NCBI GenBank assembly: GCA_963704905.1 | Contig: CAVPHZ010000001.1 | Span: 579,438-643,437, forward strand | Direction of reading: 5' to 3' | DNA: 64,000 nucleotides | Origin: Candidatus Chisholmbacteria bacterium | Lineage (GTDB): Bacteria > Patescibacteriota > Microgenomatia > UBA1400 > Chisholmbacteraceae | In this document: positions 50,874-64,000 of the stretch, one piece after another | Layout: every line of letters begins with the position of its first letter | Numbering within the stretch: position 1 is the first letter of the stretch | Translations under genes and position numbers: made by a program | The notes under the pieces: generated by a model | Database searches by the model: none | Told to the model about the DNA's origin: nothing | The model's input: the letters and a program-made list of their open reading frames with translations, nothing else

Positions 50874-51236
50874 GTGTATACTTATATAACTATGAGAAGC
50901 CTGCCCAAGACCTTCTTTGTTTTTCTTGCTGTTATAAGTCTCTTATCTTTGTTGGCGTATTCACCTCAACACACTCTTGCTCAAGAGGAAGACTTCACTG
51001 AGGAGGAAGAGATTGTTGAGGAGGAGGAAGTGCTTGAGGAAGAAGAGGTAGTTGAGGAAGAAGTAGTTGAGGAAGTTGTTGAAGAAGAGAATACAGAAGG
51101 GGAAGTACTTGGAGGTGCAACGGAACTTGGGGATACTGGCGCAGAGGACTATATATACGTAGTGGCAGGTTTGGTCGGCGTTTTGGTTGTGGCTGCGGGT
51201 TTTAAAATTGCACGCAGTAATGTCGAAGAGTACTGA
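50874..51236 (+). CDS. Small secreted acidic protein. It has a signal peptide, a Glu/Val-rich (EEVVEEE) repeat region and a C-terminal hydrophobic anchor preceded by 'LGDTG'. It is a possible non-canonical sortase substrate.
   Basis: The N-terminus 'MRSLPKTFFVFLAVISLLSLLAYSPQHTLAQ' looks like a signal peptide. The C-terminus 'ELGDTGAEDYIYVVAGLVGVLVVAAGFKIARSNVEEY' has the motif / hydrophobic / charged-tail layout of a sorting signal. The gene overlaps the start of the sortase gene. Confidence 0.4.
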   Translation: MYTYITMRSLPKTFFVFLAVISLLSLLAYSPQHTLAQEEDFTEEEEIVEEEEVLEEEEVVEEEVVEEVVEEENTEGEVLGGATELGDTGAEDYIYVVAGLVGVLVVAAGFKIARSNVEEY

Positions 51237-51801
51237 ATTCATTCTCCAGTTAAGTTTCATTCTTTTTGTTGCGCTCATTCCGTCATTGGTTATCATCCGT
51301 GTCTTTGAACCTGCCAAAGCTTTGGCTGAAAATTTTAAAGAAAACGATCCGCAAGTGTTTTTGAATCCACTTGTAGCTTTTGTTAATGAGGGAGTTATTG
51401 AGAGAAAGCATGTGAAGGAATCCCCAGTGCTCTTATCAATTCCTGCACATGACTTACAATTGCCTGTTGCTGAAGGAAAGATTAGTGATAAGGTATGGGA
51501 GCTTTATGATGATAAAGTCGCTTGGCTTTCGACGAGTGATGAACCTGGAGAAGGGAATGTTATCCTTTATGCCCATAATCAGAAGCATTTATTTGCACCA
51601 CTTCATGATGTGGAGGTTGGTGAAGAGATTGTAGTTGAGCATGGAGGATGGGAATATCTTTACGAGATTGTTGAGAAGCGTAAGGTTGAACCTTCTGATG
51701 TAGATTCTGTCCTGACTGATCAAGAGCAACTCACTCTATACACTTGCGATGGAACATTTGATCAGCGGCGATTAGTTGTGATTGCACGACCCAAGGCATG
51801 A
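51220..51801 (+). CDS. Sortase-family transpeptidase.
   Basis: Has an N-terminal TM anchor (FILQLSFILFVALIPSLVIIRV). The catalytic His is in 'NVILYAHN' (~51574), the Cys in the TLxTC motif 'LTLYTCDG' (51745-51747) and the Arg in 'RRLVVIARP'. The ORF track allows an earlier start at 51187; 51220 (MSKSTEF) minimises overlap with the upstream gene. Confidence 0.7.
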   Translation: MSKSTEFILQLSFILFVALIPSLVIIRVFEPAKALAENFKENDPQVFLNPLVAFVNEGVIERKHVKESPVLLSIPAHDLQLPVAEGKISDKVWELYDDKVAWLSTSDEPGEGNVILYAHNQKHLFAPLHDVEVGEEIVVEHGGWEYLYEIVEKRKVEPSDVDSVLTDQEQLTLYTCDGTFDQRRLVVIARPKA

Positions 51802-51848: not shown

Positions 51849-53927
51849 GTGAAACACAGCAGACTTTTTCCTCTTTTTCTGTCAATCTTTTCTATTTGGC
51901 TATTATGGCCAGTAATTCATGCTCAAGGACCTGCGTGGATGGGGTCTGCTGATGGATTCATGCTTGCGAAAGCGAGATTTCTTCAAAACGGTTTTGGATT
52001 AGGAAGTTGGAATCGGTTTTGGTTTCTCGGAATTCCGGGACAGCATATTGGATCTCCATTGTTACCATACTTGCTGGCTATCGGTTTTCGTATCATTGTA
52101 AATCAGCCCATTCGCATGTTTCAGTTGTGGAGACTGATTGTTGTCGTAGGTGTTATTGGATCAGTGAGTGGTATTTATAAACTAACAAGAACGTTCGTTA
52201 GAGAGCCAATGAAGGCTAAAGGTATTGCACAAGCATTGTTTGTTTCGCTTCTTACACTCTCTTTACCTTCCAGCCTTCTTTTTTTTCCACAAGTATTTGG
52301 AATTACCCGTGAATTTGGTTTTGCGAGTTGGTCATTGTTCAGCCCTCTCTATTTGGGAGATGGTCATCGATCGGTCGGATTTGCTGTGATTCTCACTATT
52401 CTGTTTGTTGCAGCACAACTCCTTGAGCGTTGGAATTTACGGACTGCAGTACTTATGAGCGGATTGGTTGGACTTTTGTTACTGATTGATTCTTTAAGCC
52501 TATTGCCTCTTCTGTTGTGGCTGATTGTTGTAATGATGTTTGCCATTTTGCGACACCAGAGGGAAACGAGTGAAATTGCAGAGTATTGCATAAGATTTAT
52601 ATTTATAATCTTCTTCGGCTGTCTCCTGGTTTCATTCTGGTTTACTCCTGGTTATGTACTTAACTTGGTAGGATCACCGTCGTTAGGGGGAAAGTCTTTC
52701 TTATCTGTATCAATAGGTATTGTGCAGAGATACGTTGTCATTCTTCCTATTATTTTTGGCATTCTCATCGGTAAGAAGATGCTCAAGAAATTATCAAATC
52801 TAACACTTCTGGGCTTATTCGGATTCATTATATTTGGGGTAGTAACTCTTGTTTCATACTTTGCTGATCCGGATTTTTGGCAAGATTACACTCGGTTTGG
52901 CCGATCATTGGATTTGAGCATAGCCTTTCTAATAGGAGGCGTTGTTTTCCAGCAAAAAAATATTCGTCGATCGTTTCGACTACTATTCTACTGGCTTCTA
53001 TTGATTGTGCTTATTTATCAGACTATTTCTTTACGTGGGAGCGGGCTGATGAGTGAGGTAGGATCAATTTTTGAGAGTAGTGAGTATCAGGTGGGATCTG
53101 AACTGCAGCAGCTACTTTTGTCGGAATGCAAAACCAGTGAAACCTGTGAAGAGCGAGCATACCTCTCTGGCAGTTCGGCTTTTTGGTTTAATGCTTGGTT
53201 TCCATATGCACAAGTGCGTGGTGGGAGTGAAATGGGTTCATTGAATGATTGGTGGCCACATGGTTCATTTCAAATCCGTGAAGGTCGTACAAGCGACTTG
53301 ACGCGTTTATGGCTTGAGGCGATGGGGGTTGAATTCGTCGTTGTTCACGGTCAGGATTCAGATGAAATATATCATGATTTTCGCCATCCTTCGAAATTCG
53401 ATGAGATGGATGGTTGGGAGGCAACAAGTAAAGGTGAAGGAAATGTCATCTATCAGAATAATAATTCATCCTTTGCTCGAGTTGCTTCTCAGAATCTACT
53501 CTCGATTTCTTCTCCACAACAGGGTGATGATGTTGAGCAACTCCGTCAATATGTTGAGCAGCTTAATCGTCAAGCTAACTTTGAATGGATCACCCAGCGA
53601 GAGTTTGAGATTTTCGCGACGACAACTACAGGAGAAGGTATAAGTGTACCTGTATCCTATTCAGCTTTCTGGAGAATTATCGAAAGTACCGTTCCAGCGA
53701 AGTTAGTCCGAGATCCGTTGGGGTTGATGTTTATACAGCTCGACGGTTCTGGTCCAATTTCAGTTCGATTACGCTATTCACCATTTCCAGATATTTTAAG
53801 CGGTATGGCTTTTACCATTGTTGCTTTTTTCATTCTGCTTCGTAAGCCGAATTTCATTGAAGATACTGGAGACAAGTTCAGGAGCTTTGTAGGTACAGAT
53901 TCGGATATTGATCGCACTGCGCTATAA
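51849..53927 (+). CDS. Large polytopic membrane protein (692 aa) with ~12 TM helices followed by a C-terminal soluble domain. It is a putative GT-C-type glycosyltransferase or polysaccharide-handling protein, family unassigned.
   Basis: Hydropathy was read from the translation. The C-terminal 'VVVHGQDSDEIYHDF...GEGNVIYQNN' is shared with the 734-aa paralogue ('MANGQDSDISRYWL...NGDIIYRVP'). It uses a GTG start with no clear SD, so the start is uncertain. Confidence 0.45.
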   Translation: MKHSRLFPLFLSIFSIWLLWPVIHAQGPAWMGSADGFMLAKARFLQNGFGLGSWNRFWFLGIPGQHIGSPLLPYLLAIGFRIIVNQPIRMFQLWRLIVVVGVIGSVSGIYKLTRTFVREPMKAKGIAQALFVSLLTLSLPSSLLFFPQVFGITREFGFASWSLFSPLYLGDGHRSVGFAVILTILFVAAQLLERWNLRTAVLMSGLVGLLLLIDSLSLLPLLLWLIVVMMFAILRHQRETSEIAEYCIRFIFIIFFGCLLVSFWFTPGYVLNLVGSPSLGGKSFLSVSIGIVQRYVVILPIIFGILIGKKMLKKLSNLTLLGLFGFIIFGVVTLVSYFADPDFWQDYTRFGRSLDLSIAFLIGGVVFQQKNIRRSFRLLFYWLLLIVLIYQTISLRGSGLMSEVGSIFESSEYQVGSELQQLLLSECKTSETCEERAYLSGSSAFWFNAWFPYAQVRGGSEMGSLNDWWPHGSFQIREGRTSDLTRLWLEAMGVEFVVVHGQDSDEIYHDFRHPSKFDEMDGWEATSKGEGNVIYQNNNSSFARVASQNLLSISSPQQGDDVEQLRQYVEQLNRQANFEWITQREFEIFATTTTGEGISVPVSYSAFWRIIESTVPAKLVRDPLGLMFIQLDGSGPISVRLRYSPFPDILSGMAFTIVAFFILLRKPNFIEDTGDKFRSFVGTDSDIDRTAL

Positions 53928-54234
53928 GTAGATTGAAAATTTTGCTTAGAACGATAGTTGTTATTGATTACTATTATAGGTTTCTCTTCATTTTGCGGCT
54001 GTGCGACGATTATAGTTGTTGTAAATGTTATCACTCTTATTCTATTACTGCTATTCGAACGATTTGTGATTTATTGTTAGTGCATCGCTTATTCTGCCAC
54101 TAATTGTAAGTAATGGATGTCTTTGGAATGGCGGAGAAGCATTATTCGTCTAATATTCGGTATTTAGTCTGATTTTAATATGGGATATAGAAATAAACTT
54201 AACTAAGCGGTGATACTATGAAGATTAAGAGAGA

Positions 54235-54747
54235 TTAACTTAGACTACTCGAGGTGTGTGAAGTGATTTGTGATTGTGGTATTGGTGAGAGAGGCTGGCT
54301 TGGTAGATCTTTTGTTCTGGCTCTTTGAAGGAGGATAAAGCTAGCTATAAGAAGTATTGCTATGATTGCAGCCAGGCCTGCAGTGGCTATGTCGCTTTTA
54401 AAACGGCTTTTAGCTGGCTTAGTGGGAGTGATTGTCAAGGTCTGTTTCCTAATAGGTTGTGTTATATGAGATTGATAGATTGGCTTTGCGGTAGAAATAG
54501 TTTTTGGTTTTTGTTCTAACTTTGGTTTTGGTTCAAAAACTTGTGCCATTGGTTGTTTGAGTATATTTTCTAGCTGTTTTCGACCATATCTGCGGTGTCC
54601 ACCCACTGTTCTTCGAGCTGTTAGCTTTCCCCTTTTTTCCCATCGTCTAAGAGTGTCTTTTGAGACACCCAAATATTCTGCTGCTTCTGCGATTGAAAGC
54701 CACTGTCTGGTGCCAAAAGGGATTATTTTCACAGGTTGTTTCTTCAT
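54235..54747 (-). CDS. Membrane-tethered DNA-binding protein with an N-terminal excisionase/MerR-type helix-turn-helix, a low-complexity linker and a single C-terminal TM helix.
   Basis: 'WLSIAEAAEYLGVSKDTLRRWEKRGKL' is the classic excisionase-family HTH signature. The TM helix is 'IATAGLAAIIAILLIASFILL'. The linker is Pro/Lys/Thr-rich. Confidence 0.55.
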   Translation of the reverse strand: MKKQPVKIIPFGTRQWLSIAEAAEYLGVSKDTLRRWEKRGKLTARRTVGGHRRYGRKQLENILKQPMAQVFEPKPKLEQKPKTISTAKPIYQSHITQPIRKQTLTITPTKPAKSRFKSDIATAGLAAIIAILLIASFILLQRARTKDLPSQPLSPIPQSQITSHTSSSLS

Positions 54748-55648
54748 ACTATTGTAGACTTATGCATATCATTATATAAGTACGTTGTAGGTATCATACA
54801 AAGAAATTACATCACTGTCAATCATTTTTTCCAGGTGAGTATTTCATCCCATTGCAGGTATCACGTCTTCTTAGACAATACTTTTATTTTAGATAAATAT
54901 CTTTAGAATTGCTAGATTATCAGGTGAAATATAACTGAGACATTTTTCACAGAAGTGATGTATATCATCCACCTGAAAAGCTATCGTGAAATTAGCGACA
55001 ATATCTAAGAGTATGTTCGCTTGTGACGCTAACTACATCTGGTTCGCACTCTCTATAATTATCTGATTGAAGTTTGAACTTCATATATCGTCCCTATCCA
55101 TCAATTAAACTTGACTAGTTAATAGACAAGACAATATTACCTCTGGGATTGAAAATAATACAATGAAGATAATGTTGGAAATAGGAAAAAAAGGATAGCA
55201 ACATCGCTTACAGAAGTATTAGTGAAAATGCGGTCATTGTTTAATTTAAAATCGTGAGTCGGAATATATTTAGTTGGCTGTGATCATCATTTATTGACTC
55301 AGTCTTGACCTACAGATATCCTGACTAAAGGAAGTTTTATAATATATCAATATATAACATAAAGAATCAATTCACTTAACCGACTAATAATTTGGTTTTG
55401 TTGTGGCAAAAGTGATGTAAATTATGAATTACTCAAGTTGCATACTAATGCACAGGAATGAAGTAGATGTGACACATTGTTTGATTATTTTAGATGATCG
55501 TGAAAACCATCTAATACTAAGCAATATAACAAATAATACAGGTTCTATCTAATATTTACTTAAAGCAGGATTACATCATTAAAGCTAAAAATTTGATAGA
55601 TTTATACTAATGAAACGTACAATACAAAAAATTGAAAAATGAAACAAG

Positions 55649-56884
55649 ATGGTTTCTAAAGAAAATACTATACGATTGAAATTGAAAGAGAATCTATTTG
55701 TGGGATCTCTGGTTGCCATGAACGTGGTACTCGTATGGCAATATTTTAATCAACCGTTTCCGTACGTGTTTTCTGCGCCGCTCATTCCAGTATCCGTCGA
55801 TTTCGTGAGACGTTTTGGAGCTGATATAGATTCGGCTGCTCGGATGATGCTTTTTGGTTTTTATATCTTTGGTCCAACTACACTTTATTACCTTGTTCGA
55901 AATGTCACGGGTCGACGAATGAGTGCGGCGTTTGCAGCAGTCCTATACTCACTGCCAATTTTTCGCGCACGATTGGAAGCTATGACACTTCTTGGAGATG
56001 GAGCACATATTGCATCACTTACGGTTATTCCGCTTGCGGTAATGTGGTATTTAAAATATATACGGACGGGAAAATACATTGTTTCTATTATTGCTGGTGC
56101 TTTTCTTTTGCTGGTGTCGCTCATCAGTCCATTTGGATTTTTTGTACTTCTGGGGATACTTGCGGTAATTACATTCTCTGAAATGCTTCTCGGTTCAGGA
56201 AGAACCAAGGCGATACGACTTATATGGGTGATACTTGTTGCCTTGGGTTTTTCTGCCTTTTGGTATAACCCATCTTTTATTCAAGCTAATTTTACTTCTA
56301 CATCTGGAAGAGCGGTTGTTGCTGCGGTAAATAATCTTATTCCGATCTCATTTGTTGTGTTACCAGTCTTGGCTACGTTTGGATATCTGATTTTTGATAA
56401 GCGCGCACATCTTCAACCCCTATTTATTGCATTGGGAATGACAATCCTTTTTGGACTTATATCGTTTGCTGGGGGATTAGCGCCGTTTGCTGTATCTGCT
56501 CAACGCCGGTATCTATCTGAGCTCCTTCTTTCTCTGGCGTTTCTCTGGGGAGTTGTTGGTACATTTGTATATGACATGATTGGTGTTATTCCAGCTTCAG
56601 AGTATTTTCCAGTATCCATGGAGAAACGTAAGACGATTCAACGCTCTCTAGTTATTTTGATGATTGTTATTTCAATTGCTGTTATTTTACTTGTGCCGTT
56701 TGAGATCTCCTCGAGAAGGGGAGATGACTTTCTCGACGAGGGTGTGATTGAGGCATCAGTTTATGAGGTTGTGCGAGTGAGGTCTTCGTCTAGCACGTTT
56801 TCGACTGTTGTTGGATATGGTATTAGCGGATTAACAGTTCTTGGTTTGGTCGGTTTGTATCGGTGGGTGCTGAGGCGTTCTTGA
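55649..56884 (+). CDS. Polytopic membrane protein (411 aa, ~10 TM). It is paralogous to the N-terminal membrane domains of the neighbouring 692- and 734-aa proteins but lacks their C-terminal soluble domain.
   Basis: Hydrophobic helices run throughout. The arrangement resembles the N-terminal region of 56959..59163. Confidence 0.45.
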   Translation: MVSKENTIRLKLKENLFVGSLVAMNVVLVWQYFNQPFPYVFSAPLIPVSVDFVRRFGADIDSAARMMLFGFYIFGPTTLYYLVRNVTGRRMSAAFAAVLYSLPIFRARLEAMTLLGDGAHIASLTVIPLAVMWYLKYIRTGKYIVSIIAGAFLLLVSLISPFGFFVLLGILAVITFSEMLLGSGRTKAIRLIWVILVALGFSAFWYNPSFIQANFTSTSGRAVVAAVNNLIPISFVVLPVLATFGYLIFDKRAHLQPLFIALGMTILFGLISFAGGLAPFAVSAQRRYLSELLLSLAFLWGVVGTFVYDMIGVIPASEYFPVSMEKRKTIQRSLVILMIVISIAVILLVPFEISSRRGDDFLDEGVIEASVYEVVRVRSSSSTFSTVVGYGISGLTVLGLVGLYRWVLRRS

Positions 56885-56958
56885 TTGGAGAACGTGTATA
56901 CATAGGTTGAGTCTTACAGAGGATTGAGTCTCTCAAGTTTTGATGGTTCAATAGTCAC

Positions 56959-59163
56959 ATGCCTCGAAATTCATTATTGAGCAAACCCACTGTAAAGAGA
57001 TTTTCTGTGTTGTTCAATAGATTAGGTCGATTGCTCGTTGGGTTTATAGCAGCAGCTGTCATTGGCTATCTCAACTGGATGGTTATCCATGGCTGGTTTG
57101 GCGGTGAAGGTCCAGCAAATATTGGTTCGATTGAGGTGTCGTATGTTTCCATGGCGAGATTTTTGGTGGACTTTGGCTACAAAACATGGGCACCGTTCTG
57201 GTACTTTGGTTTTCCATTTCATCTTTTTTATACACCTTTGTTACCATTTCTTGAAGCAATACTTCACAACGCTCTTGGTTGGCATCTTTGGGAAGCGTAT
57301 CGGTTTATCACTGGATTTGCTTATATTTTGGCTCCGATTTCTGTGTTTATTTTAGGGTGGGTGCTCTCTGAAAGGTTTATTGGCGGCTTTGTCAGCGGAA
57401 TTCTATACTCAGTGGTCCCAACGCTTTATTACTTCATCTTGCCTGGAACGAGGGATTCTGTTTATGGAGAAGTAGCTGCAGATCGGTTTTCAGCTACATT
57501 TTGGGATCCACGCCGATTTACAATTTTGATCCGATGGGGTGAAGGTCCACACACATTATCTCTGGTGTTTTTACCTCTGGTGGGTGCTCTCTTCATGCTT
57601 TCTCTAAAGAGGCGGAAGTTTTGGTTACTTGTTCTGGCATCTCTGTTTTTTGTACTCACAGCTCTTTCCAATGCTTTAGGAATGCTGGGGGCAGTGATTT
57701 TGGCTTTATCAATAGCATTTGTCCATTTTGCTCGAGAGTCTAAAGATCACATTCGCACAGCTACTTGGACGGTTTTGCTGTTGGTGATGGGACTAGGCTT
57801 GGCATCATTTTGGTATAACTTGTCATTTATAATGAATTTCTTTGCTGAGGGAGGTGGAGCAGCCTCGATTTACCTATCTCTATTTCCTTGGGGTTGGTTG
57901 GCTTTTGCACTTGCAGTCGTGATTCTTTATTTTGTAACCGGTAAACTTCTCAAAGATTGGGGTTTTGCTTCATCTTTGATCTGGTTCTTAGCTCTCTTTT
58001 TTGTGGTTTATGTTTTCTATTCCTCTGCACCACCAGAGCTTTCGAATCAGCGGATTGAGCTACTTCCACAAGCCTTGCGTTATATCACTCAGGTTGATCT
58101 GGCTTTCTCAGTGCTGGTTGGAGTAACAATTGCATGGGCACTCAAGTTCATTGGTCGGCGGTTTTTACTTGTGGAACGTATTCTTTCTCTAATTCTTGCC
58201 GGAGTAAGTTTATATGCATTTATCTATATCCAACCGTTTCTTACCACATCGTACAATGTCTCAAATACTGTCGTTGACTTAAGTCAAACGAGAGAGGAAA
58301 CAATTGCTACTCTTCTTGAGAAGAACGTGGATCCAATCAAAGGTGAGCGAGTATTTCTGCCTGGAAATTATGGTTTTTACTTGAATTGGTTTACAAATGT
58401 CTGGCAACACAGAGGCGGTTTGTTTCAGGCTGCAACCCATCCTTGGCCAGACCATGTGCATTATCAGATGGCAAATGGGCAAGATAGTGACATTTCCAGA
58501 TATTGGCTCAAGGCAATTAATGCCAAATATATTGTCATTCCTACTCCGGAATCTCAAGAGCTTTATAAAGAGATAAAAAATCAAGAGCGGTTTGAGGATT
58601 TTGAAAAAGTCTATGAGAAGAATGGAGATATCATCTATCGAGTGCCGCTTCTGCGCCCATCCATTGCAAAACCGGTTGATGAGAATGCGATGATTTCTCT
58701 GGTAACACCAGAGAAAGGAGATGATGAGGAAGCGTTACAAGAATACGTTCGGTGGGTTGAGCGATCTTCAGAAACAGAGGCACGCTTTGAAATGGTTGAT
58801 CATGACCATTATGTTCTTTCAGGTTCGCTTGAGGAGGGGGAAGTATTACTGGTTCAAATGACAGCTGACTCAGGATGGAGTGCCATGCGTCGTAATGCTC
58901 CTCAGGGTACACGAGTTAAAGTGAAGACAGGGAAAGATCCTTTAGGATTTTTGGTTCTTTATCCTGATCCAGGGGATTTTGAGATTGAACTTACTCATTC
59001 TACAACTTGGCAACTCTGGCTTGGGTATCTTACAACCTTTATGACGATAGGATTCATCTTTTGGTACGGTTGGGCTTCTCGAAGATTTGCCAAAGGTGTT
59101 GAGAAACTAAAAGCTAGTAAAGCCAAGAGGGATGCAGACAAACGAGAAACAGGTAAAAAATGA
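56959..59163 (+). CDS. Large polytopic membrane protein (734 aa) with a C-terminal soluble domain. It is a putative GT-C-type glycosyltransferase-like protein and a paralogue of 51849..53927.
   Basis: Has ~12 predicted TM helices, then a soluble domain containing the 'GQDSD' block shared with the 692-aa protein. The C-terminus has an extra amphipathic/TM segment (LWLGYLTTFMTIGFIFWYGW) and a basic tail. Confidence 0.45.
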   Translation: MPRNSLLSKPTVKRFSVLFNRLGRLLVGFIAAAVIGYLNWMVIHGWFGGEGPANIGSIEVSYVSMARFLVDFGYKTWAPFWYFGFPFHLFYTPLLPFLEAILHNALGWHLWEAYRFITGFAYILAPISVFILGWVLSERFIGGFVSGILYSVVPTLYYFILPGTRDSVYGEVAADRFSATFWDPRRFTILIRWGEGPHTLSLVFLPLVGALFMLSLKRRKFWLLVLASLFFVLTALSNALGMLGAVILALSIAFVHFARESKDHIRTATWTVLLLVMGLGLASFWYNLSFIMNFFAEGGGAASIYLSLFPWGWLAFALAVVILYFVTGKLLKDWGFASSLIWFLALFFVVYVFYSSAPPELSNQRIELLPQALRYITQVDLAFSVLVGVTIAWALKFIGRRFLLVERILSLILAGVSLYAFIYIQPFLTTSYNVSNTVVDLSQTREETIATLLEKNVDPIKGERVFLPGNYGFYLNWFTNVWQHRGGLFQAATHPWPDHVHYQMANGQDSDISRYWLKAINAKYIVIPTPESQELYKEIKNQERFEDFEKVYEKNGDIIYRVPLLRPSIAKPVDENAMISLVTPEKGDDEEALQEYVRWVERSSETEARFEMVDHDHYVLSGSLEEGEVLLVQMTADSGWSAMRRNAPQGTRVKVKTGKDPLGFLVLYPDPGDFEIELTHSTTWQLWLGYLTTFMTIGFIFWYGWASRRFAKGVEKLKASKAKRDADKRETGKK

Positions 59164-60183
59164 ACCGCTCTTTACCTCAGGTATCTGCGATTATTGTCAC
59201 CTACAATAATAAGAGGTGGCTTATGAAATGTATTCCCTCTCTTCTTAAACAGACGTATGGAAATCTTGAGGTCATTGTTGTTGACAATGCTTCCGTTGAT
59301 GGTGCGAGTGCTTTGGTTAAAGAGCACTTTCCTGAGGTGAAAGTAGTCATTGTTGATGAGAATCGCGGTTTTGGTTCCGGTTGTAATGCAGGTGCTCAAG
59401 ATGCTCGAGGGAGGTATCTTCTCTTTTGTAATGAAGATATGGTTTTTGATAAGAACTACGTCAAGACTCTGGTAAGGGAGCTTGAGATTGATCCTCTCAT
59501 TGGAGTTGCGACAAGGAACAACGCATGCTTACACCGAATCCAAAACAGGGATAGAGAATCAGAGGACTATTCAGTCACGGGGACTACTGTTTAATTACAC
59601 AGGAGTTTTGGTTGGAAGTGGACAGAAAGTGGAAAATCAGGAAAATGATGGCGATATTTTTGCTGCAACTGTACCATTTATTATAAGAAAGATTACTTAT
59701 GATCGGGTTAAGGGATTTGATGAAGACTTCTTTCTATATTTTGAAGAAGTTGATCTTTGTTGGAGGGTTTGGTTAGCTGGAAAGCGTGTGACTTTTGTTC
59801 CCCAGGCAAAAGCTATGCATGTCGGTGGAGTATCTACCGGTAAGCTTTCTTCCTCGAGTGTAGTTGAATTTACACTGCGTAATAGACTTCAATCGTATCT
59901 TATTAATCTTGGAGCACTTCGTCTACCTATCGCTTTACTTATGCAACTGCTAATGGGAGCGCTGGCTGTGGTTATCCTTCTACTTCGAACTAAAATCACT
60001 CTTTCATTTGCAGTGGCGCGAGCGTTTGCATGGAACTTATGGCACTTACCTCGTAGTCTTAGCAAGCGAACTCAGGTACAAAAGAGCCGATTGGTTGAAG
60101 ACCGTGATTTTCTATTGCGAGTGACGGGTCCGATTCCGCTAAACAAGCTTCTTTTTCTTGTCGGGTTTCGTACGAGTCTGTGA
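59160..60183 (+). pseudogene. Family-2 glycosyltransferase (GT-A fold, rhamnosyltransferase-like) split into two overlapping ORFs (59160..59594 and 59482..60183) by a frameshift. It is either a pseudogene or a sequencing error.
   Basis: The N-terminal ORF has 'VSAIIVTYNNKRWLMKCIPSLLKQTY...EVIVVDNASVDGASALV...NRGFGSGCNAGAQDARGRYLLFCNEDMVF'. The C-terminal ORF continues with 'IQSRGLLFNYTG...GFDEDFFLYFEEVDLCWRVWLAGKRVTFVPQAKAMHVGG' in frame +1. The junction is between ~59505 and 59575. Its start overlaps the stop of the upstream gene (ATGA). Confidence 0.55.
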
Positions 60184-60266
60184 GTTTGGAGATAATTGGA
60201 AAATGTTTTTTGTTTCGTTTCCAGGCTAGGATGAGTATTAATGGACCGATATCAATCCCCAATGAT

Positions 60267-61196
60267 CTACTTTGATCTATTCATTTCTCTCTTGAGGAAA
60301 TATGTTAATCCTTGTTCAATGGTGACCCGCGAATTCCAATGAAGCATGGTTCTTGCTTTTAGAGTGTCAGCGGATTTGAAGCGTTCTTCCCATTGCGCGC
60401 GCGGATTGGGGATGACGTGTTTTGTTTTGCCGCCGATGATATCTGCAAGCTGATTGATGCTGGTTGGATGTCCACTGCCGATGTTGATGATTTCACCTTT
60501 GAAGTTTTTCTTCCTTTTTACCGCGAGTATTGAGGCTGTGATTACATCTGTAACGTGGGTAAAGTCGCGGGTTTGTTTTCCATCACCGTAGATGGTGAGC
60601 GGATGTCCTTGCTTTTTTTGTTCAAGAAAAATAGGAATGACGAGTTTATATGCTCCAGTAGTGGGCATCCTCGGTCCATAGACGTTAAAGTAACGGAGGA
60701 TGACTGTATCAATCAGATACATTTTCCCAAGTACTTGGACGTAGATCTCTGACATGCGCTTTTGTGCTGCATAGGGTGATTCTGGTTTGCACGGATGGCT
60801 TTCTTTAACAGGGAGATCTTGATTATTAATTTTTCCATACACTGAGGAGGAAGAACTGTATACAAATCTTTTTATCCCTGCATCTGACGTTGCTTTGAGG
60901 ACATTGACTGTTGCTGTCACGTTGGCGTCGTGAGTTTTCTTGGGATGATCGAAGGAGCGCTCGATTCTTGGTAATGCGGCCAGATGAAAGACGCTATCTG
61001 CTTTGGGAAACTTGACTGGGTCGATTAAATCAGTCTTGACGAATTTTGCCTTGGGATTTAGATTTTCTTTTTTTCCGGTGGAGAGATTGTCGTAAATAAT
61101 CACACTATGGCCGAGGTTGATTAGCGTATCAACTAGGTGACTGCCAATGAAGCCTGCACCTCCGGTAACGATGATTGTTTGCTTAGGTTTGCTCAT
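60267..61196 (-). CDS. NAD-dependent epimerase/dehydratase (extended SDR; UDP-sugar 4-epimerase / UDP-glucuronate decarboxylase-like).
   Basis: It has the N-terminal Rossmann motif 'TGGAGFIGSHLV', the catalytic 'YAAQK' (YxxxK) and the 'SSSSVYG' block. Confidence 0.75.
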   Translation of the reverse strand: MSKPKQTIIVTGGAGFIGSHLVDTLINLGHSVIIYDNLSTGKKENLNPKAKFVKTDLIDPVKFPKADSVFHLAALPRIERSFDHPKKTHDANVTATVNVLKATSDAGIKRFVYSSSSSVYGKINNQDLPVKESHPCKPESPYAAQKRMSEIYVQVLGKMYLIDTVILRYFNVYGPRMPTTGAYKLVIPIFLEQKKQGHPLTIYGDGKQTRDFTHVTDVITASILAVKRKKNFKGEIINIGSGHPTSINQLADIIGGKTKHVIPNPRAQWEERFKSADTLKARTMLHWNSRVTIEQGLTYFLKREMNRSK

Positions 61197-61632
61197 ATTT
61201 TATTTGTTCCTTCTTTGTTTAGGAAAACAAGGAACCAAGAAAGCCTAACCCAATGACCGGTCTTTCAAGAGAGCATTTCGCTCAAGTTATACGATCTAAT
61301 TCCTCGGTATAAACCCTCGTCGAACAGGCGATCGTTTCATATCGATTTCGTTACATGTTCTCTTTATTAGTTGCGGTCAGAGGGTGTAATTCAGTACTTA
61401 ATTTCAATAACCAATTCTGATTTTGAAGTATAGCTTATCAAGGGAGGAGAGGCAATTTTTTTGATTTTTTTTCTGCTTGGTTCTTGAATAGCTGTGCTGG
61501 AATATTTAAGTCTGCTTATTTGTCACAGACGTATTACTTGGTGTAGTTGGTGTGTTAATATGATGATCATGACTAGCACTTCAGGTGGGTATCTATGATT
61601 AATAGTCACGTTTTTATTGAGTACTAACTTTT

Positions 61633-62862
61633 ATGAATGGAACTGAGCATAAAACCCTCAGCGTAAGGGCAGGTAGTCGAAAAAAAGTAGGTATTGTGCG
61701 TGGTCCTGGGTTGTCGAAGTGGGAAATGCGGATTTATGAACCTTTGGAGGAGTGGTTTGATCTGACTGGGATAGGGAGTACGAGACCCGGGAATGATGTT
61801 TCTGGGATAACGTTTCCAGTGAAGAAGCTTATTTGTCCAGCTCAATATTTCTATTGGCTACCAAAACTGATTCCGATTCTGTACAGCACTGCTGGAGACA
61901 CGCAGTGGCTTCTCAATTTCTCTCAAGCAGTTCAGGGTATGAGACTTCTGCATGCTGTTGAATTACGAAATGGCTATAGCTTGCAAGCGGTGAGGGCGAA
62001 GCAGGCGGGACTCGTTGAGGCTGTAACGCTTACAGTGTATGAGAATATTCCTTTTACTGGGGATGGCTACCCACGGCGAAAACGAATCAAGGAAGAGGTT
62101 CTAGCAGGTGTTGATCACTTTCTAGCAGCCAATGAAATGGCTCGGCAGGCGTTGTTGTTAGAGGGAGCCTCTGATGAGCGAATCTCAGTTGTATCACAGA
62201 GTGTAGATACACATCGTTTTACTCCAATTCATACCTCAAAAACTCAACATCAGAAGTTTAGAAAACAATTGGGAATTGGAAATAATGATTATGTTGTACT
62301 TTCGATTGGGAGGATGGTTTGGGAGAAAGGGTGGGAGGATCTCCTGGCTGCTGCCAGGAGAATTTTCAATGTCCAAGGTTCAATGATCAAGAAGAGGAAT
62401 GTACGGTTTTTGTGTGTTGGGGAAGGTCCGACGCTTGGGAGGTACAGAGAATTGGTTGTGCAATTAGGTCTTGAAAAGTCGGTACTCTTTCCTGGTGGGA
62501 TTGCGTATCGTGATATGCCTGATATTTTTCGGTTGGCTGATGTGTTTGTCTATGCTAGCTTACCTACGTCAGTTTGGAATGCGCAATTTGGAGGTGTACT
62601 CATTGAGGCAATGGCGACTGGACTTCCGATTGTAGGTACTCTCTCTGGTGGAACACGGGATGATACGGTTGGTCGAGATGGAGGGATTTTTGTTCAACCG
62701 CAGCATTTTTCAAGACTGGCGGATGCGATTTTAAAGTTATACAGAGAACCGGGACTGGGAAAAAACATTGGGAGGAGAAATCGGTCTGTTGCCACTCGAC
62801 AATATGATACTCTAGTGGTGGCTGGGCAGATTAAACATATTTGGGAAAAAGTCATGAGTTAA
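61633..62862 (+). CDS. Family-4 glycosyltransferase (GT-B fold, Glycos_transf_1 type).
   Basis: The C-terminal domain has 'FLCVGEGP', 'ADVFVYASLPTSVWNAQFGGVLIEAMATGLPIV' (the E-x7-E region) and 'GGIFVQP'. Confidence 0.7.
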   Translation: MNGTEHKTLSVRAGSRKKVGIVRGPGLSKWEMRIYEPLEEWFDLTGIGSTRPGNDVSGITFPVKKLICPAQYFYWLPKLIPILYSTAGDTQWLLNFSQAVQGMRLLHAVELRNGYSLQAVRAKQAGLVEAVTLTVYENIPFTGDGYPRRKRIKEEVLAGVDHFLAANEMARQALLLEGASDERISVVSQSVDTHRFTPIHTSKTQHQKFRKQLGIGNNDYVVLSIGRMVWEKGWEDLLAAARRIFNVQGSMIKKRNVRFLCVGEGPTLGRYRELVVQLGLEKSVLFPGGIAYRDMPDIFRLADVFVYASLPTSVWNAQFGGVLIEAMATGLPIVGTLSGGTRDDTVGRDGGIFVQPQHFSRLADAILKLYREPGLGKNIGRRNRSVATRQYDTLVVAGQIKHIWEKVMS

Positions 62863-62870
62863 AAAATATT

Positions 62871-64000
62871 ATGGCAAATCATAATCTTAGAAGTACTAGC
62901 GTCTATCCGGTTATACCTCATGCTTTTGAAGTGCTTGTGAAGAAGCGAGCGGTTAGCGGAGTGTTTGTATTGGGTTTGAGGAGGATAGTCTTTCAGCTTA
63001 TTCTTACAGGGGGAAACATTGTTTTAGCGAGATTGTTTTTTCCTGAGATTATCGGACAGTTTACCATTATCAGTTTTATTGTGACTTTTTTTAGTGTCTC
63101 AACAGATTTGGGTTTGGGTCAGGCTTTAGTGCAAAAGTCGAGTAGACCAACGCTTACAGAGTTGCGGACAGTATTTACGGTTCATCTTTTATTAGGGATT
63201 TTTTCGTTTTCTGCTGCTTATCTTTCAGCTCCCTTCATTGCTGCTTTTTATCACGAACAACTGGGTGACCAGGGAGCTTTTCTTATCCGCTTCATGGCTG
63301 TGAGCTTGCTGTTTTATGGTTTACGGAGAGTGTCTTCGTTTATTCTTGAGAGAGAGTTGCGGTTTATGCGCTTCAGTATTGGAGAAATTCTTGAGATAGT
63401 AACTATTCAAGGAATGACAATTTTCTTTGCTCTCTCAGGTTATGGCTTAGAAAGTTTTGTTTTTGGGGCTGTTATTGGACGCATCGTTGGGTTTATTGCT
63501 TTTTTTCTTCTTTCTCCTTGGTCAATCGGATTTTCTTTTTCTGTGAAGCGATTACGAAGGTTGCTCGAGTTTGGTGTGCCAATGCAGATCAATATTCTGA
63601 TAGGTTTAGTTAATGGCGCATTAGCACCTCTGTTTATTGGAAAATTTCCTGGCCCAGGTGGATATTCTGGTACTGAAGCTGTTGGTTTGATTTCGTGGGC
63701 TGGTGGACTGGCTCTTGCAAGTCAAGCAGTTTCTGAATTAGTACAGCGGATTATTTTTCCTGCCGTATCGCGACTTCAGGAAGAGCCTCGTTTGCTCGCT
63801 CCGATCATCGAGCGCGGGTTGCTCCTGGCAAGCTTTCTTTCTTTTCCAATGATGGCCTTGATTGCAGGTTTGGCTAGACCGATCACTTATCTGATTTACT
63901 CAGATAAGTGGTTGCCGGGACTGCTTGTGTTGTATCTTCTTCTTGTTCATTCTGCGGTGATGGTTCTTTGGACTGTGCTTATGCCAGTGTTTTTAGGACT
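62871..64000 (+). CDS. Wzx-like polysaccharide/oligosaccharide flippase (MOP superfamily), 3'-truncated by the window edge.
   Basis: It translates from the ATG at 62871 (MANHNLRSTSVYP...) and stays open to the end of the window. It is multi-TM with charged residues in helices, and 'polysaccharide biosynthesis protein'-like blocks ('VPMQINILIGLVNGALAPLFIGKF', 'RLLAPIIERGLLLASFLSFPMMALIAGLARPI'). It is absent from the ORF track because no stop falls within the window. Confidence 0.6.
   Translation, partial: MANHNLRSTSVYPVIPHAFEVLVKKRAVSGVFVLGLRRIVFQLILTGGNIVLARLFFPEIIGQFTIISFIVTFFSVSTDLGLGQALVQKSSRPTLTELRTVFTVHLLLGIFSFSAAYLSAPFIAAFYHEQLGDQGAFLIRFMAVSLLFYGLRRVSSFILERELRFMRFSIGEILEIVTIQGMTIFFALSGYGLESFVFGAVIGRIVGFIAFFLLSPWSIGFSFSVKRLRRLLEFGVPMQINILIGLVNGALAPLFIGKFPGPGGYSGTEAVGLISWAGGLALASQAVSELVQRIIFPAVSRLQEEPRLLAPIIERGLLLASFLSFPMMALIAGLARPITYLIYSDKWLPGLLVLYLLLVHSAVMVLWTVLMPVFLG

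What the first reader, a model, noticed from the sequence alone, without database searches (positions are those of the whole stretch)
51849..64000. Surface-glycan cluster with three paralogous GT-C-like membrane proteins next to the fibre and sorting genes
- **Content.** Three related polytopic membrane proteins (692, 411 and 734 aa; the two large ones share a C-terminal soluble domain with a 'GQDSD' block) are followed by a GT2, an NAD-dependent epimerase/dehydratase, a GT4 and a Wzx-like flippase.
- **Classic glycan pathway.** This is the toolkit of a lipid-linked oligosaccharide pathway. Sugar is activated and modified (epimerase), assembled on a lipid carrier (GT2/GT4), flipped (Wzx), and transferred en bloc or polymerised outside by GT-C enzymes.
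- **Possible target.** Located beside the giant Thr/Ser/Asn-rich fibre, these GT-C proteins are candidates for glycosylating the fibre itself (S-layer-like O- or N-glycosylation) rather than making a free polysaccharide.
- **Why three paralogues.** Three paralogues may reflect different acceptor sites.
Basis: inference. Interest (0 to 1): 0.55.

Follow-up and report, generated by a model that had tools for sequence, protein, structure and literature searches.

The report
Unannotated GT-C glycosyltransferase trio, surface-glycan cluster
Three related, unannotated membrane proteins fold like lipid-linked-sugar (GT-C) glycosyltransferases and sit, in many Microgenomates bacteria, between a giant exosortase-sorted surface protein and a sugar-assembly/flippase gene set, so they most likely add glycans to that surface structure, although the acceptor is not shown.

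Summary
The genes are real and in the order described. There are four corrections:
- The GT2 is split by one frameshift.
- The epimerase is on the minus strand.
- A 1.7-kb AT-rich gap holding an HTH gene separates M1 from M2.
- The 'GQDSD' strings lie at non-homologous positions.

None of the three membrane proteins (M1 692 aa, M2 411 aa, M3 734 aa) matches Pfam, NCBIfam or any PDB sequence. High-confidence AlphaFold models of M3 and M2 nevertheless match GT-C enzymes first (STT3/AglB/PglB, DPY19, AftA/AftD, ArnT, Emb). Relatives of M2 reach Pfam PF10131, an uncharacterised family of the GT-C clan.

M1 and M3 keep a conserved acidic residue in the first outside loop, as GT-C enzymes do. M2 has lost that loop segment and the outside domain, so it is probably a non-catalytic partner.

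In 32 non-redundant Patescibacteria loci:
- the M2→M3 pair is present in 28;
- the giant HTH+GT2 protein or its Xrt-like sorting enzyme lies within 10 kb in 17;
- Wzx, GT2 or GT4 lies within 10 kb in 19.

The GT-C identity is well supported. The acceptor (fibre protein or a glycan) is still inferred. I read this as a new GT-C family variant of moderate interest.

The parts
51849..53927 (+). M1: full-length GT-C-like membrane protein (692 aa) with about 11 TM helices, an outside domain and a final TM helix.
   Evidence: It is 24% identical to M3 over the full length. Eleven homologues cover 81-100% of the 692-aa reading (ten of them 93-100%), so the GTG start at 51849 is preferred over the 662-aa database version. 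The acid in 'GS[AGV]DG' of the first outside loop is kept in the nine closest full-length orthologues and is Glu in P0182. M1-type copies lie upstream of M2-M3 in other loci.
54235..54747 (-). Interposed excisionase/MerR-type HTH protein with one TM helix, inside a 1.7-kb AT-rich gap. It may be a local regulator. Whether it belongs to the cluster is uncertain.
   Evidence: Pfam MerR 5e-14 and HTH_17 7e-13. TIGR01764 excisionase-family domain 2.8e-12. GC 0.35. Sequence read.
55649..56884 (+). M2: truncated GT-C-fold paralogue (411 aa) made of the membrane domain only. It lacks the acid-bearing part of loop 1 and the outside domain, and is probably a non-catalytic partner of M3.
   Evidence: AlphaFold2 pLDDT 87.2. 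Twenty-four of the top 27 Foldseek hits are GT-C enzymes: STT3, ArnT, AglB, AftA, Emb, PglB, DPY19. hhalign to the M3 family gives probability 99.9, with a gap opposite M3 residues about 50-85. No loop-1 column exceeds 33% Asp/Glu. Nineteen of 33 relatives hit PF10131.
56959..59163 (+). M3: full-length GT-C-fold protein (734 aa). Predicted topology is N-terminus inside, about 11 TM helices, a 250-aa outside alpha/beta plus beta-sandwich domain, and a final TM helix.
   Evidence: AlphaFold2 pLDDT 91.6, pTM 0.90. The top 21 Foldseek PDB hits are all GT-C enzymes, E 6e-8 to 1e-4. Conserved outside-facing residues are E59, D175, R186, E195, H198, W285, R374 and D380. E378, near-invariant in the family, is Gln here and in close relatives.
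59160..60183 (+). GT2 glycosyltransferase. Its start overlaps the M3 stop by 4 nt. It is split by one frameshift near 59,510-59,590, which is either a pseudogene or an assembly error.
   Evidence: Pfam Glycos_transf_2 2.7e-27 for the N-terminal part and Glyco_trans_2_3 for the C-terminal part. tblastn with the intact L011 orthologue switches frame once. The orthologue's best PDB relatives are ordinary nucleotide-sugar GT2s (chondroitin synthase, GalT1, PglI), not DPMS or ArnC.
60267..61196 (-). NAD-dependent sugar epimerase/dehydratase (SDR).
   Evidence: Pfam Epimerase 1.2e-63. Closest NCBIfam model is GalE at 175 bits, below its cut-off.
61633..62862 (+). GT4 glycosyltransferase.
   Evidence: Pfam Glycos_transf_1 5.3e-26. 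Best NCBIfam model is a PEP-CTERM/XrtA-system GT (TIGR03088) at 8.6e-27, far below its cut-off.
62871..64000 (+). MOP/Wzx-type flippase, cut off by the window end.
   Evidence: Pfam Polysacc_synt_3 2.5e-51. NCBIfam MOP flippase 1.3e-29. Start codon checked.
24586..50064 (+). Giant 8492-aa protein, the candidate acceptor or partner. It has 2x HTH, a membrane GT2 synthase domain (QRMRW), a Thr/Ser/Asn/Gly-rich repeat fibre, and a C-terminal 'PE' + TM + Lys/Arg sorting signal.
   Evidence: Pfam HTH_23 and Glyco_trans_2_3. NCBIfam PgaC/IcaA 5e-25, XrtP- and XrtG-associated GT2 models; PDB BcsA 6e-8. The C-terminal signal is shared by seven of the eight giant homologues inspected.
50113..50688 (+). 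Exosortase/archaeosortase-family protein (Xrt-like). It directly follows the giant gene.
   Evidence: TIGR04178 signature at 33.9 bits, above its cut-off of 23. It directly follows or abuts the giant gene in L018, L021, L027, L030, L033 and L035.
50874..51801 (+). Small acidic protein with an LGDTG + TM + basic tail (50874-51236) and a sortase (51187-51801).
   Evidence: Pfam Sortase 3.7e-21. Weak LPXTG-anchor models. The same pair follows M2-M3 in L026.

Best explanation
**What the proteins are**
- M1 and M3 are outward-facing glycosyltransferases of an undescribed family within the GT-C superfamily.
- M2 is a truncated paralogue that has lost the acid-bearing loop and the outside domain. It probably works as a non-catalytic membrane partner of M3.

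**Proposed pathway**
1. The cytoplasmic enzymes (SDR epimerase, GT2, GT4) make and assemble sugars on a polyprenyl-phosphate carrier.
2. The MOP/Wzx flippase moves the carrier-linked glycan to the outer face of the membrane.
3. M1 and M3 transfer the sugar or oligosaccharide to an acceptor outside the cell.
4. The most likely acceptor is the Thr/Ser/Asn-rich extracellular part of the neighbouring giant protein. That protein carries its own GT2 synthase domain and a PE+TM+basic C-terminal signal for the adjacent Xrt-like enzyme.

**Shown versus inferred**
- Shown: the GT-C fold, the conserved outside-facing acidic and basic residues, the loss of the loop in M2, and the conserved gene neighbourhood.
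- Inferred: the donor, the acceptor, the M2-M3 complex and the order of steps.
- I put the GT-C identity at about 0.9 and the whole chain, including the fibre as acceptor, at about 0.4.
For: **Fold**
- M3 model: pLDDT 91.6. All 21 PDB hits with E<=1e-4 are GT-C enzymes.
- M2 model: pLDDT 87.2. Its hits are led by STT3, ArnT, AglB, AftA, Emb, PglB and DPY19.
- PF10131 is hit by 19 of 33 M2-family members, two of them above the gathering score. PMC7801869 lists PF10131 in GT-C clan CL0111.

**Active-site logic**
- There is an Asp/Glu at M3 position 59, in 'GSI[ED]' just after TM1, in 28 of the 28 aligned Patescibacteria sequences and 47 of 51 other sequences. M1 has Asp there.
- D175, R186, E195, H198, R374 and D380 also map to predicted outside loops.

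**Context**
- M3 overlaps the GT2 start by 4 nt.
- In 32 non-redundant Patescibacteria loci, the M2->M3 pair is present in 28. Wzx, GT2 or GT4 lies within 10 kb in 19. The giant HTH-GT2 protein or the Xrt-like gene lies within 10 kb in 17.
- An M1 orthologue also lies beside such a giant.
- A 25%-identical non-Patescibacteria homologue sits back to back with Exosortase_EpsH and EpsI.
- PEP-CTERM proteins are reported to be enriched in residues associated with glycosylation, and exosortases are reported to lie in EPS loci (PMC12188702).
Against: - No curated GT-C family matches the window proteins, and no PDB sequence matches.
- Foldseek TM-scores are modest: 0.38-0.44 for M3.
- The OST signature WWDYG is absent.
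- No initiating phosphoglycosyltransferase was seen in the window ORFs scanned or in three annotated relatives.
- The GT2 is frameshifted in this assembly.
- E378, near-invariant in the family, is Gln in this M3.
- Bryobacterales homologues have no giant protein or exosortase within 10 kb. Together with L079 they sit beside DPMS-like GT2s and further GT-C genes, which suits stepwise glycan building.
- The beta-sandwich gives weak matches to an alpha-agarase chain, which would fit a glycan acceptor.
Confidence: 0.4

Rival explanations
1. The acceptor is a glycan rather than a protein. M1 and M3 would add sugars one at a time from polyprenyl-monophosphate-sugar donors, or ligate an oligosaccharide, onto a polysaccharide. 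That polysaccharide would be either the polymer extruded by the giant protein's own GT2 synthase domain or a wall-linked glycopolymer. The several paralogues would then catalyse different linkages, as the mycobacterial AftA-D/Emb enzymes do.
For: - AftD, AftA and EmbB are among the fold hits.
- The conserved C-terminal beta-sandwich gives partial matches to an alpha-agarase chain, probability 0.95-0.98 over 97 columns.
- Family members occur as tandem pairs, as fused double or triple copies, and next to bona fide PF10131 GT-C genes.
- In L063 and L079 the adjacent small GT2 is closest to dolichol-P-mannose synthase and ArnC, E 5.5e-10 and 6.6e-15.
- The giant's GT2 domain is PgaC/BcsA-like and carries QRMRW.
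Against: - No DPMS-type GT2 was found in the window. The cluster GT2 and its intact orthologue resemble ordinary nucleotide-sugar GT2s.
- The Wzx and GT4 context suggests a pre-assembled oligosaccharide.
- The top fold hits are protein glycosyltransferases.
- The alpha-agarase matches have weak E-values of about 0.5.
Confidence: 0.3
2. The GT-C proteins are general envelope glycosylation enzymes. Their acceptors (S-layer, pili, many surface proteins or lipids) would have nothing specific to do with the giant protein, and the neighbourhood would only reflect clustering of surface-biogenesis genes.
For: - Fifteen of 32 Patescibacteria loci show no giant or Xrt-like gene within the DNA available, for example the Daviesbacteria loci L003 and L007.
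- The family is widespread: 844 clusters at E<=1e-30, including Acidobacteriota, Chloroflexota and Bathyarchaeota.
Against: - Many of the loci without a giant or Xrt-like gene are short contigs or were sampled on one side only.
- The link to exosortase-family genes recurs in a lineage only 25% identical.
- The giant-Xrt-GT-C order recurs in several candidate Microgenomates phyla (Chisholmbacteria, Curtissbacteria, Gottesmanbacteria) and in several unclassified MAGs.
Confidence: 0.15
3. The proteins build or present an anchor. The M2/M3 pair would make or hold the lipid-linked glycan to which the Xrt-like transpeptidase attaches the cleaved C-terminus of the giant protein. This would be comparable to the GT-C-clan subunit PIG-U in the GPI transamidase, or to glycolipid attachment of type IX secretion cargo.
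For: - The GT-C family is linked to exosortase-family genes in two distant lineages.
- M2 looks non-catalytic yet is strictly conserved.
- PIG-U is listed in the GT-C clan (PMC7801869).
- Type IX cargo is attached to a glycolipid after removal of its C-terminal signal (PMC7468200 abstract).
Against: - M1 and M3 keep the acidic residue expected of active transferases.
- Bryobacterales homologues have no exosortase gene within 10 kb.
- There is no direct evidence of any kind.
Confidence: 0.1
4. The three proteins are transporters or structural membrane proteins with no glycosyltransferase role.
For: No curated family or PDB sequence match.
Against: - Transporter folds appear only at Foldseek E>0.1 with probability at or below about 0.2, below all the GT-C hits.
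- Relatives match PF10131 of the GT-C clan.
- Outside-facing acidic and basic residues are conserved.
- The neighbours are GT2, GT4 and Wzx genes.
Confidence: 0.03

Closest known systems
STT3/PglB/AglB oligosaccharyltransferases (GT-C, Pfam PF02516)
   Same: They are the best structural matches to both the M3 and M2 models. Both have a multi-pass membrane domain followed by an outside C-terminal domain, an acidic residue in the first outside loop, and a Wzx-type flippase with cytoplasmic GTs in the neighbourhood. In Haloferax a sorted surface glycoprotein, an archaeosortase and AglB coexist (from my own knowledge; the review PMC6098224 was listed but not read).
   Different: There is no sequence or profile match and no WWDYG motif. 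The outside domain is followed by an extra C-terminal TM helix. TM-scores are only about 0.4. These proteins come as a paralogue set that includes a truncated member.
Pfam PF10131 'PTPS_related' (uncharacterised membrane family of GT-C clan CL0111)
   Same: It is the only curated family reached by sequence. Nineteen of 33 M2-family members match at E<=1, and two score 30.5-31.5 bits against a cut-off of 26.4. Distant M3-family members match weakly. True PF10131 genes lie next to M3-like genes in L003 and L079.
   Different: The window's own M1, M2 and M3 do not match it at E<=0.1-1. No member of PF10131 has a described function in the papers searched.
Mycobacterial arabinosyltransferases AftA-D and EmbA/B/C
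   Same: They share the GT-C fold. Several paralogues act in one pathway. They carry C-terminal outside carbohydrate-binding domains, and AftD also has further C-terminal TM helices. Hetero-oligomers exist (the EmbA-EmbB entry 7bvc is among the hits). They are among the fold hits.
   Different: There is no sequence similarity apart from one relative with a GT-C_AftD hit at E 0.77. The envelope chemistry is entirely different, and no decaprenyl-phosphate-arabinose genes were seen.
Polyprenyl-phosphate-sugar three-component systems (DPMS+PMT, ArnC+ArnT, GtrB+GtrC, CsbB+YfhO)
   Same: In distant relatives (L063, L079) the M3-type genes lie beside a small GT2 whose closest solved relatives are DPMS and ArnC. 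This is the usual donor supply for a GT-C enzyme.
   Different: No such GT2 was found in this window or in its close relatives. The cluster GT2 is of the ordinary nucleotide-sugar type and the flippase is of the Wzx/MOP type. PMT_2 and YfhO profile matches are only sporadic and weak.
Exosortase systems with associated glycosyltransferases (PEP-CTERM/XrtA-EPS loci; the XrtG system of Firmicutes)
   Same: An Xrt-family protein lies next to its single substrate, which carries a PE+TM+basic C-terminal signal, and next to GT2 and GT4 genes. The GT2 domain matches the XrtP- and XrtG-associated GT2 models. The XrtG system is described as substrate + XrtG + two GTs in PMC12854382.
   Different: Here the GT2 synthase is fused to the sorted substrate itself, which is 8,492 aa long. 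A GT-C paralogue set belongs to the conserved module. GT-C members are not listed among the components of the XrtG system as described in PMC12854382.

Membership tests
GT-C glycosyltransferase superfamily (fold level) | Multi-pass membrane domain with the GT-C fold. | tested here: met
   M3 model (pLDDT 91.6): all 21 PDB hits with E<=1e-4 are GT-C enzymes. M2 model (pLDDT 87.2): 24 of the top 27 hits are GT-C enzymes, with a best TM-score of 0.53 normalised to the query. M1 is inferred from its 24% full-length identity to M3.
GT-C glycosyltransferase superfamily (fold level) | N-terminus inside, with a long first outside loop that carries a conserved Asp/Glu. | tested here: met
   Met for M3 (E59) and M1 (Asp in 'GSADG'). 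An acid is present in 75 of the 79 aligned family sequences at that column. NOT met for M2: the segment is deleted and no loop-1 column exceeds 33% acidic residues.
GT-C glycosyltransferase superfamily (fold level) | Uses a polyprenyl-phosphate-linked sugar donor. | not testable with these tools
   The support is indirect only: Wzx, GT2 and GT4 neighbours here, and DPMS/ArnC-like GT2 next to distant relatives.
Pfam PF10131 PTPS_related (GT-C clan CL0111) | Profile match at or above the gathering score of 26.4 bits. | tested here: inconclusive
   Window M1, M2 and M3 give no hit. M2-family relatives P0147 and P0150 score 31.5 and 30.5 bits. Nineteen of 33 relatives match at E<=1. M3-family relatives score 16-19 bits.
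STT3/PglB/AglB oligosaccharyltransferase (PF02516) | STT3 profile match and a WWD[YWN]G motif in the outside domain. | tested here: not met
   There is no PF02516 hit for any of the 34 + 33 family members at E<=1 and no WWDYG motif. M1 has 'WWPHG' and M3 has 'HPWPDH' at a comparable place, which is a resemblance only.
PMT / PMT_2 protein O-mannosyltransferases (PF02366, PF13231) | Profile match. | tested here: not met
   The window proteins give no hit. Two of 34 M3-family members match PMT_2 at E 0.0056, below threshold.
YfhO (PF09586) | Profile match. | tested here: not met
   The only match is a 57-residue C-terminal stretch in one distant relative, E 0.011.
Wzy polymerase / O-antigen ligase (Wzy_C) | Profile match. 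| tested here: not met
   No such Pfam hit at E<=0.1-1 for M1, M2, M3 or their relatives.
Exosortase/archaeosortase sorting system (context of the cluster) | An Xrt-family membrane protein, plus a cognate C-terminal signal (short motif, TM helix, basic cluster) on a neighbouring substrate. | tested here: met
   TIGR04178 scores 33.9 bits, above its cut-off of 23, for 50113-50688. '[VIL]PE'+TM+K/R tails are found on the giant protein and on seven of the eight homologues inspected. Cleavage itself is not testable here.

The most novel reading that the evidence does not exclude
The strictly paired M2/M3 GT-C proteins may be dedicated components of an exosortase-type sorting machine. They would make or hold the lipid-linked glycan onto which the Xrt-like enzyme transfers the giant protein after cutting its PE+TM+basic signal. 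That would be a bacterial counterpart of the GT-C-clan subunit PIG-U in the GPI transamidase. If true, it would identify the long-unknown acceptor of exosortase-family transpeptidation.
Probability: 0.1. Interest if true: 0.8.

Novelty: new variant of a known kind. Interest (0 to 1): 0.5.

Why it matters
**An undescribed family**
- GT-C enzymes build most extracytoplasmic glycans, including N- and O-glycoproteins, arabinan and lipid A modifications.
- This family has about 850-1,600 clusters at 50% identity in public data. It has no annotation, no curated model that matches the window proteins, and no characterised member.

**A rare genomic handle on CPR surfaces**
- In Microgenomates the family is tied to a giant GT2-fused surface protein and an exosortase-like enzyme.
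- This bears on how bacteria of the Candidate Phyla Radiation (CPR), which are thought to depend on contact with other cells, build their surfaces.

**A testable idea about exosortases**
- The data suggest that exosortase systems include a GT-C step.

**Experimental access**
- The relatives in Bryobacterales/Solibacteraceae (Acidobacteriota) may offer an experimental route if cultured members of those groups carry the genes.

Tried and rejected
- **Curated profile scans.** Pfam and NCBIfam scans of M1, M2 and M3 found nothing. A PDB sequence search with the M3-family profile gave only chance-level ribosomal hits.
- **Extending the window.** An exact look-up of the window's own M3, meant to extend the window downstream, failed. 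Genes beyond 64,000 are therefore unknown.
- **'GQDSD' as a shared motif.** Rejected, because the two strings are out of register.
- **Exosortase near the Bryobacterales copies.** jackhmmer and phmmer runs seeded with EpsH from L075 and with the window's Xrt-like protein found none within 10 kb. The EpsH seed did not retrieve the Patescibacteria Xrt-like genes either, so sensitivity was limited.
- **GT-C bound to the GT2 module rather than the fibre.** This idea came from an M1 orthologue lying beside a '726-aa HTH-GT2' gene. It was rejected because that gene is a frameshift-split giant that continues to the contig end.
- **The cluster GT2 as a DPMS/GtrB-type donor synthase.** Rejected on the basis of its intact orthologue. 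The 251-aa GT2 of L003 is GmaR/SunS-like, not DPMS-like.
- **RNA and signal scans of 50-64 kb.** Rfam and tRNA scans found nothing. Promoter and terminator scans did not exceed the shuffled controls.
- **Literature.** No paper describes PF10131 function or this family.

Full report
**1. What is in the sequence**

The region holds the following genes:
- M1 (51849-53927, 692 aa).
- A 1.7-kb AT-rich gap (GC about 0.35) with a minus-strand excisionase/MerR-type HTH gene that also has a TM helix (54235-54747).
- M2 (55649-56884, 411 aa).
- M3 (56959-59163, 734 aa).
- A GT2 whose start overlaps the M3 stop (59160-60183).
- A minus-strand SDR epimerase/dehydratase (60267-61196).
- A GT4 (61633-62862).
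- A MOP/Wzx flippase that runs off the window (62871 onwards).

The GT2 is read in two frames. An intact orthologue from a Chisholmbacteria genome aligns across both with a single frame switch near 59,510-59,590. The gene is therefore either a pseudogene or an assembly error.

The closest homologues of all three membrane proteins come from Candidatus Chisholm-, Davies-, Woese-, Levy- and Curtissbacteria. The source contig is 772,908 bp, which points to a Microgenomates (CPR) genome.

**2. Are the three proteins paralogues?**

- M1 and M3 align end to end at 24% identity, E 9e-35.
- M2 matches M3 by BLAST only in one block, E 2e-6.
- Profile against profile, the M2 family aligns with the whole membrane domain of the M3 family, probability 99.9, E 2.8e-35.
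- M2 has no equivalent of M3 residues about 50-85, and it stops before the 250-residue outside domain.
M3's aligns with M1 'GRTSD' and M1's aligns with M3 'TPESQ'. The shared domain is real, but that 'block' is a coincidence.
- Each type has its own orthologues. M1-type copies lie upstream of M2-M3 in L005, L012, L013, L034 and L035; L009 and L010 also carry an upstream M3-family ORF that was not typed. The triplet is therefore old, not a recent duplication.

**3. Are they GT-C proteins?**

- No curated model sees them. Pfam at E<=0.1 and NCBIfam at E<=1 give nothing. A family profile finds no PDB sequence.
- Structure prediction with family alignments gave confident models: M3 with pLDDT 91.6 and pTM 0.90, and M2 with pLDDT 87.2 and pTM 0.88.
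- Foldseek against the PDB returned, for M3, 21 hits with E<=1e-4. All are GT-C enzymes: STT3 of yeast and human OST, AglB, PglB, the C-mannosyltransferase DPY19, AftD and AftA. Pmt4 and EmbB follow.
- For M2 the list is led by STT3, ArnT, AglB, AftA, EmbA/B, PglB and DPY19, and 24 of the top 27 hits are GT-C enzymes.
- Transporter folds appear only at E>0.1 with low probability.
- By sequence, 19 of 33 M2-family members reach Pfam PF10131 'PTPS_related', and two of them score above its gathering threshold. PMC7801869 lists that family in GT-C clan CL0111.

**4. Catalytic features**

- Hydropathy, charge distribution and the model's helices give M3 an N-terminus inside, about 11 TM helices, an outside domain, and a last TM helix with a Lys/Arg-rich tail inside.
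- An 82-sequence family alignment drawn from Patescibacteria, Acidobacteriota, Chloroflexota and Bathyarchaeota was examined.
- The position after TM1 ('GSI[ED]', M3 E59) is acidic in 28 of the 28 aligned Patescibacteria sequences and 47 of 51 other sequences. M1 has Asp there.
- The conserved residues D175, R186, E195-G-P-H198, W285, R374 and D380 fall in predicted outside loops.
- An acid in the first outside loop is the hallmark of GT-C catalysis. This statement rests on established knowledge of PglB, ArnT and PMT; the 'DD motif in EL1' is mentioned in PMC7801869.
- M2 lacks that segment. Its loop 1 keeps only 'FS[AG]PxIP', and no column there exceeds 33% Asp/Glu. It does retain D117-G-A-H and FWYNP.
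- Caveat: E378, which is Glu in 79 of the 82 family sequences drawn from related loci, is Gln in this M3 and its Chisholmbacteria relatives.

**5. Gene neighbourhood**

I fetched 70 loci from species-representative genomes plus Pfam-annotated contigs. I then searched their ORFs with profiles and sequences from the window. Among 32 non-redundant Patescibacteria loci:
- M2 directly precedes M3 in 28. Most exceptions are contig ends or split ORFs.
- Wzx, GT2 or GT4 lies within 10 kb in 19.
- The giant HTH+GT2 protein or the Xrt-like gene lies within 10 kb in 17.
- Only four short contigs show neither.

An M1 orthologue on another contig also lies beside a giant HTH-GT2 protein. That protein is split there by a frameshift and cut by the contig end.

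A homologue only 25% identical, outside Patescibacteria, lies back to back with Exosortase_EpsH and EpsI.

In Bryobacterales the family occurs as tandem pairs without a detectable exosortase nearby. In L063 the order is methyltransferase - small GT2 - GT-C - GT-C, and that GT2's best solved relatives are dolichol-P-mannose synthase and ArnC.

L079 shows an M3-like gene followed by two true PF10131 genes and a DPMS-like GT2.

An exhaustive HMMER search found 844 clusters at E<=1e-30 and 1,636 at E<=1e-10. These include fused double and triple copies.

**6. The neighbouring sorting module**

- The 8,492-aa protein has two HTH repeats, a membrane GT2 domain with QRMRW, and a long Thr/Ser/Asn/Gly-rich repeat region. 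The GT2 domain's best matches are PgaC/IcaA, CelA, the XrtP- and XrtG-associated GT2 models, and BcsA in the PDB.
- Its C-terminus reads 'IPEQ' + hydrophobic helix + 'KRLREKK'.
- Seven of the eight giant homologues inspected end the same way, with '[VIL]PE', a helix containing 'P[FIL]LP', and a Lys/Arg cluster. Six of them are directly followed or abutted by the Xrt-like gene.
- The window's Xrt-like protein passes the exosortase/archaeosortase signature model.
- This layout matches the PEP-CTERM design described in PMC12188702 and resembles the one-substrate XrtG system described in PMC12854382.

**7. Most likely mechanism**

The GT2, GT4 and epimerase build a glycan on a polyprenyl-phosphate carrier, and the MOP flippase exports it. 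M1 and M3, with M2 as a probable partner of M3, then transfer it outside the cell. I commit to the giant Xrt-sorted protein as the acceptor.

My confidence is about 0.9 that these are GT-C transferases or derivatives of them, and about 0.4 for the full chain.

The main rival (0.3) is a glycan acceptor with stepwise additions from polyprenyl-P-sugars. It is favoured by three things: the multi-paralogue and DPMS-like contexts in distant relatives, the AftA/AftD hits, and weak alpha-agarase matches of the beta-sandwich. A general envelope-glycosylation role (0.15) and an anchor-building role for the Xrt-like enzyme (0.1) remain open.

**8. Comparison with known systems**

The proteins work like GT-C enzymes. 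They are not members of STT3, PMT, YfhO or Wzy_C: there are no profile matches and no WWDYG motif. The window proteins themselves do not reach PF10131.

I class this as a new variant of a known kind, for three reasons:
- It is an unannotated GT-C family.
- It has a conserved truncated paralogue that has lost the catalytic loop.
- It is embedded in an exosortase-type giant-protein module.

**9. Limits**

- There is no residue-level structural superposition, no multimer model, and no view of the genome beyond the window.
- Neighbourhood counts depend on contig lengths and on my phmmer/hmmsearch thresholds of 1e-5.

Noticed in passing
window 24586-50064 (+): The giant 8,492-aa protein fuses three things: two cytoplasmic transposase-type HTH repeats, a PgaC/BcsA-like membrane GT2 synthase domain (QRMRW), and a huge repeat fibre. 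A polysaccharide synthase fused to its own sorted surface fibre is an unusual architecture. It recurs in Chisholm- and Curtissbacteria and in several unclassified Patescibacteria MAGs.
   Followed up: partly
window 49960-50064 and 50113-50688; L001, L018, L021, L027, L030, L033, L035: The giant proteins end in '[VIL]PE' + a TM helix with 'P[FIL]LP' + a Lys/Arg cluster, and six of the seven homologues are directly followed or abutted by an exosortase/archaeosortase-family gene. This looks like a dedicated PEP-CTERM-like sorting signal in CPR bacteria. The Xrt-like protein contains Cys ('NCLGW'), Arg ('NLVRMA') and His ('IIHDYF'), which may correspond to the residues conserved in exosortases; this assignment is from my own knowledge and was not tested.
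   Followed up: partly
window 50874-51236 and 51187-51801; L026 5714-6605: A small, very acidic (Glu/Val-rich) protein ends in LGDTG + TM + a basic tail and is followed by an overlapping sortase gene. This is a second, sortase-type sorting pair beside the exosortase-type one. The same pair follows M2-M3 in L026.
   Followed up: partly
window 59510-59590: The GT2 downstream of M3 needs one frameshift to be read through, judged against the intact L011 orthologue. It is either a pseudogene or an assembly error.
   Followed up: yes
window 53928-55648: A 1.7-kb AT-rich stretch (GC about 0.35) interrupts the M1-M2-M3 series. It contains a minus-strand excisionase/MerR-type HTH protein with a TM helix and about 0.9 kb with no long ORF. 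An 11-of-12 promoter-like site precedes the HTH gene. It could be a regulator or the remnant of an insertion.
   Followed up: partly
window 51849-51938: The public database version of M1 is 30 residues shorter (662 aa, starting at Met31) and lacks TM1. Most homologues (ten of eleven at 93-100% coverage) support the longer reading from the GTG at 51849.
   Followed up: yes
L046 4147-7032; L003 12141-12755; L063 6432-7160; L075 12069-13427; L079 706-1404: SAM-dependent methyltransferases lie next to M3-family genes in several phyla, and in L046 one is fused to the cytoplasmic C-terminus of an M3-family protein. This suggests methylated sugars in the pathway. No methyltransferase was found among the ORFs scanned in 50-64 kb of the window.
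   Followed up: no
proteins P0184, P0185, P0188, P0190, P0193, P0209; L039-L074: M3-family proteins occur as fused double or triple copies (1,330-2,160 aa) and as tandem gene pairs in Bryobacterales. This hints that the family works as (pseudo)dimers.
   Followed up: no
window 23-22379: Upstream of the giant gene lie further very large ORFs: a 4,675-aa ORF at 23-14050 close to the window start, one of 654 aa, and one of 1,239 aa with a Gly_rich_2 domain. A LytR_C-domain protein is also there. None shows the PE+TM+basic tail at its C-terminus.
   Followed up: partly
M1 residues 468-472 (window about 53250-53264); M3 residues 494-499: At the start of the outside domain M1 has 'WWPHG' and M3 has 'HPWPDH', with the Trp and His nearly invariant in the family. 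This superficially recalls the WWDYG motif of STT3/PglB, which lies at a comparable place. No structural test was possible.
   Followed up: no
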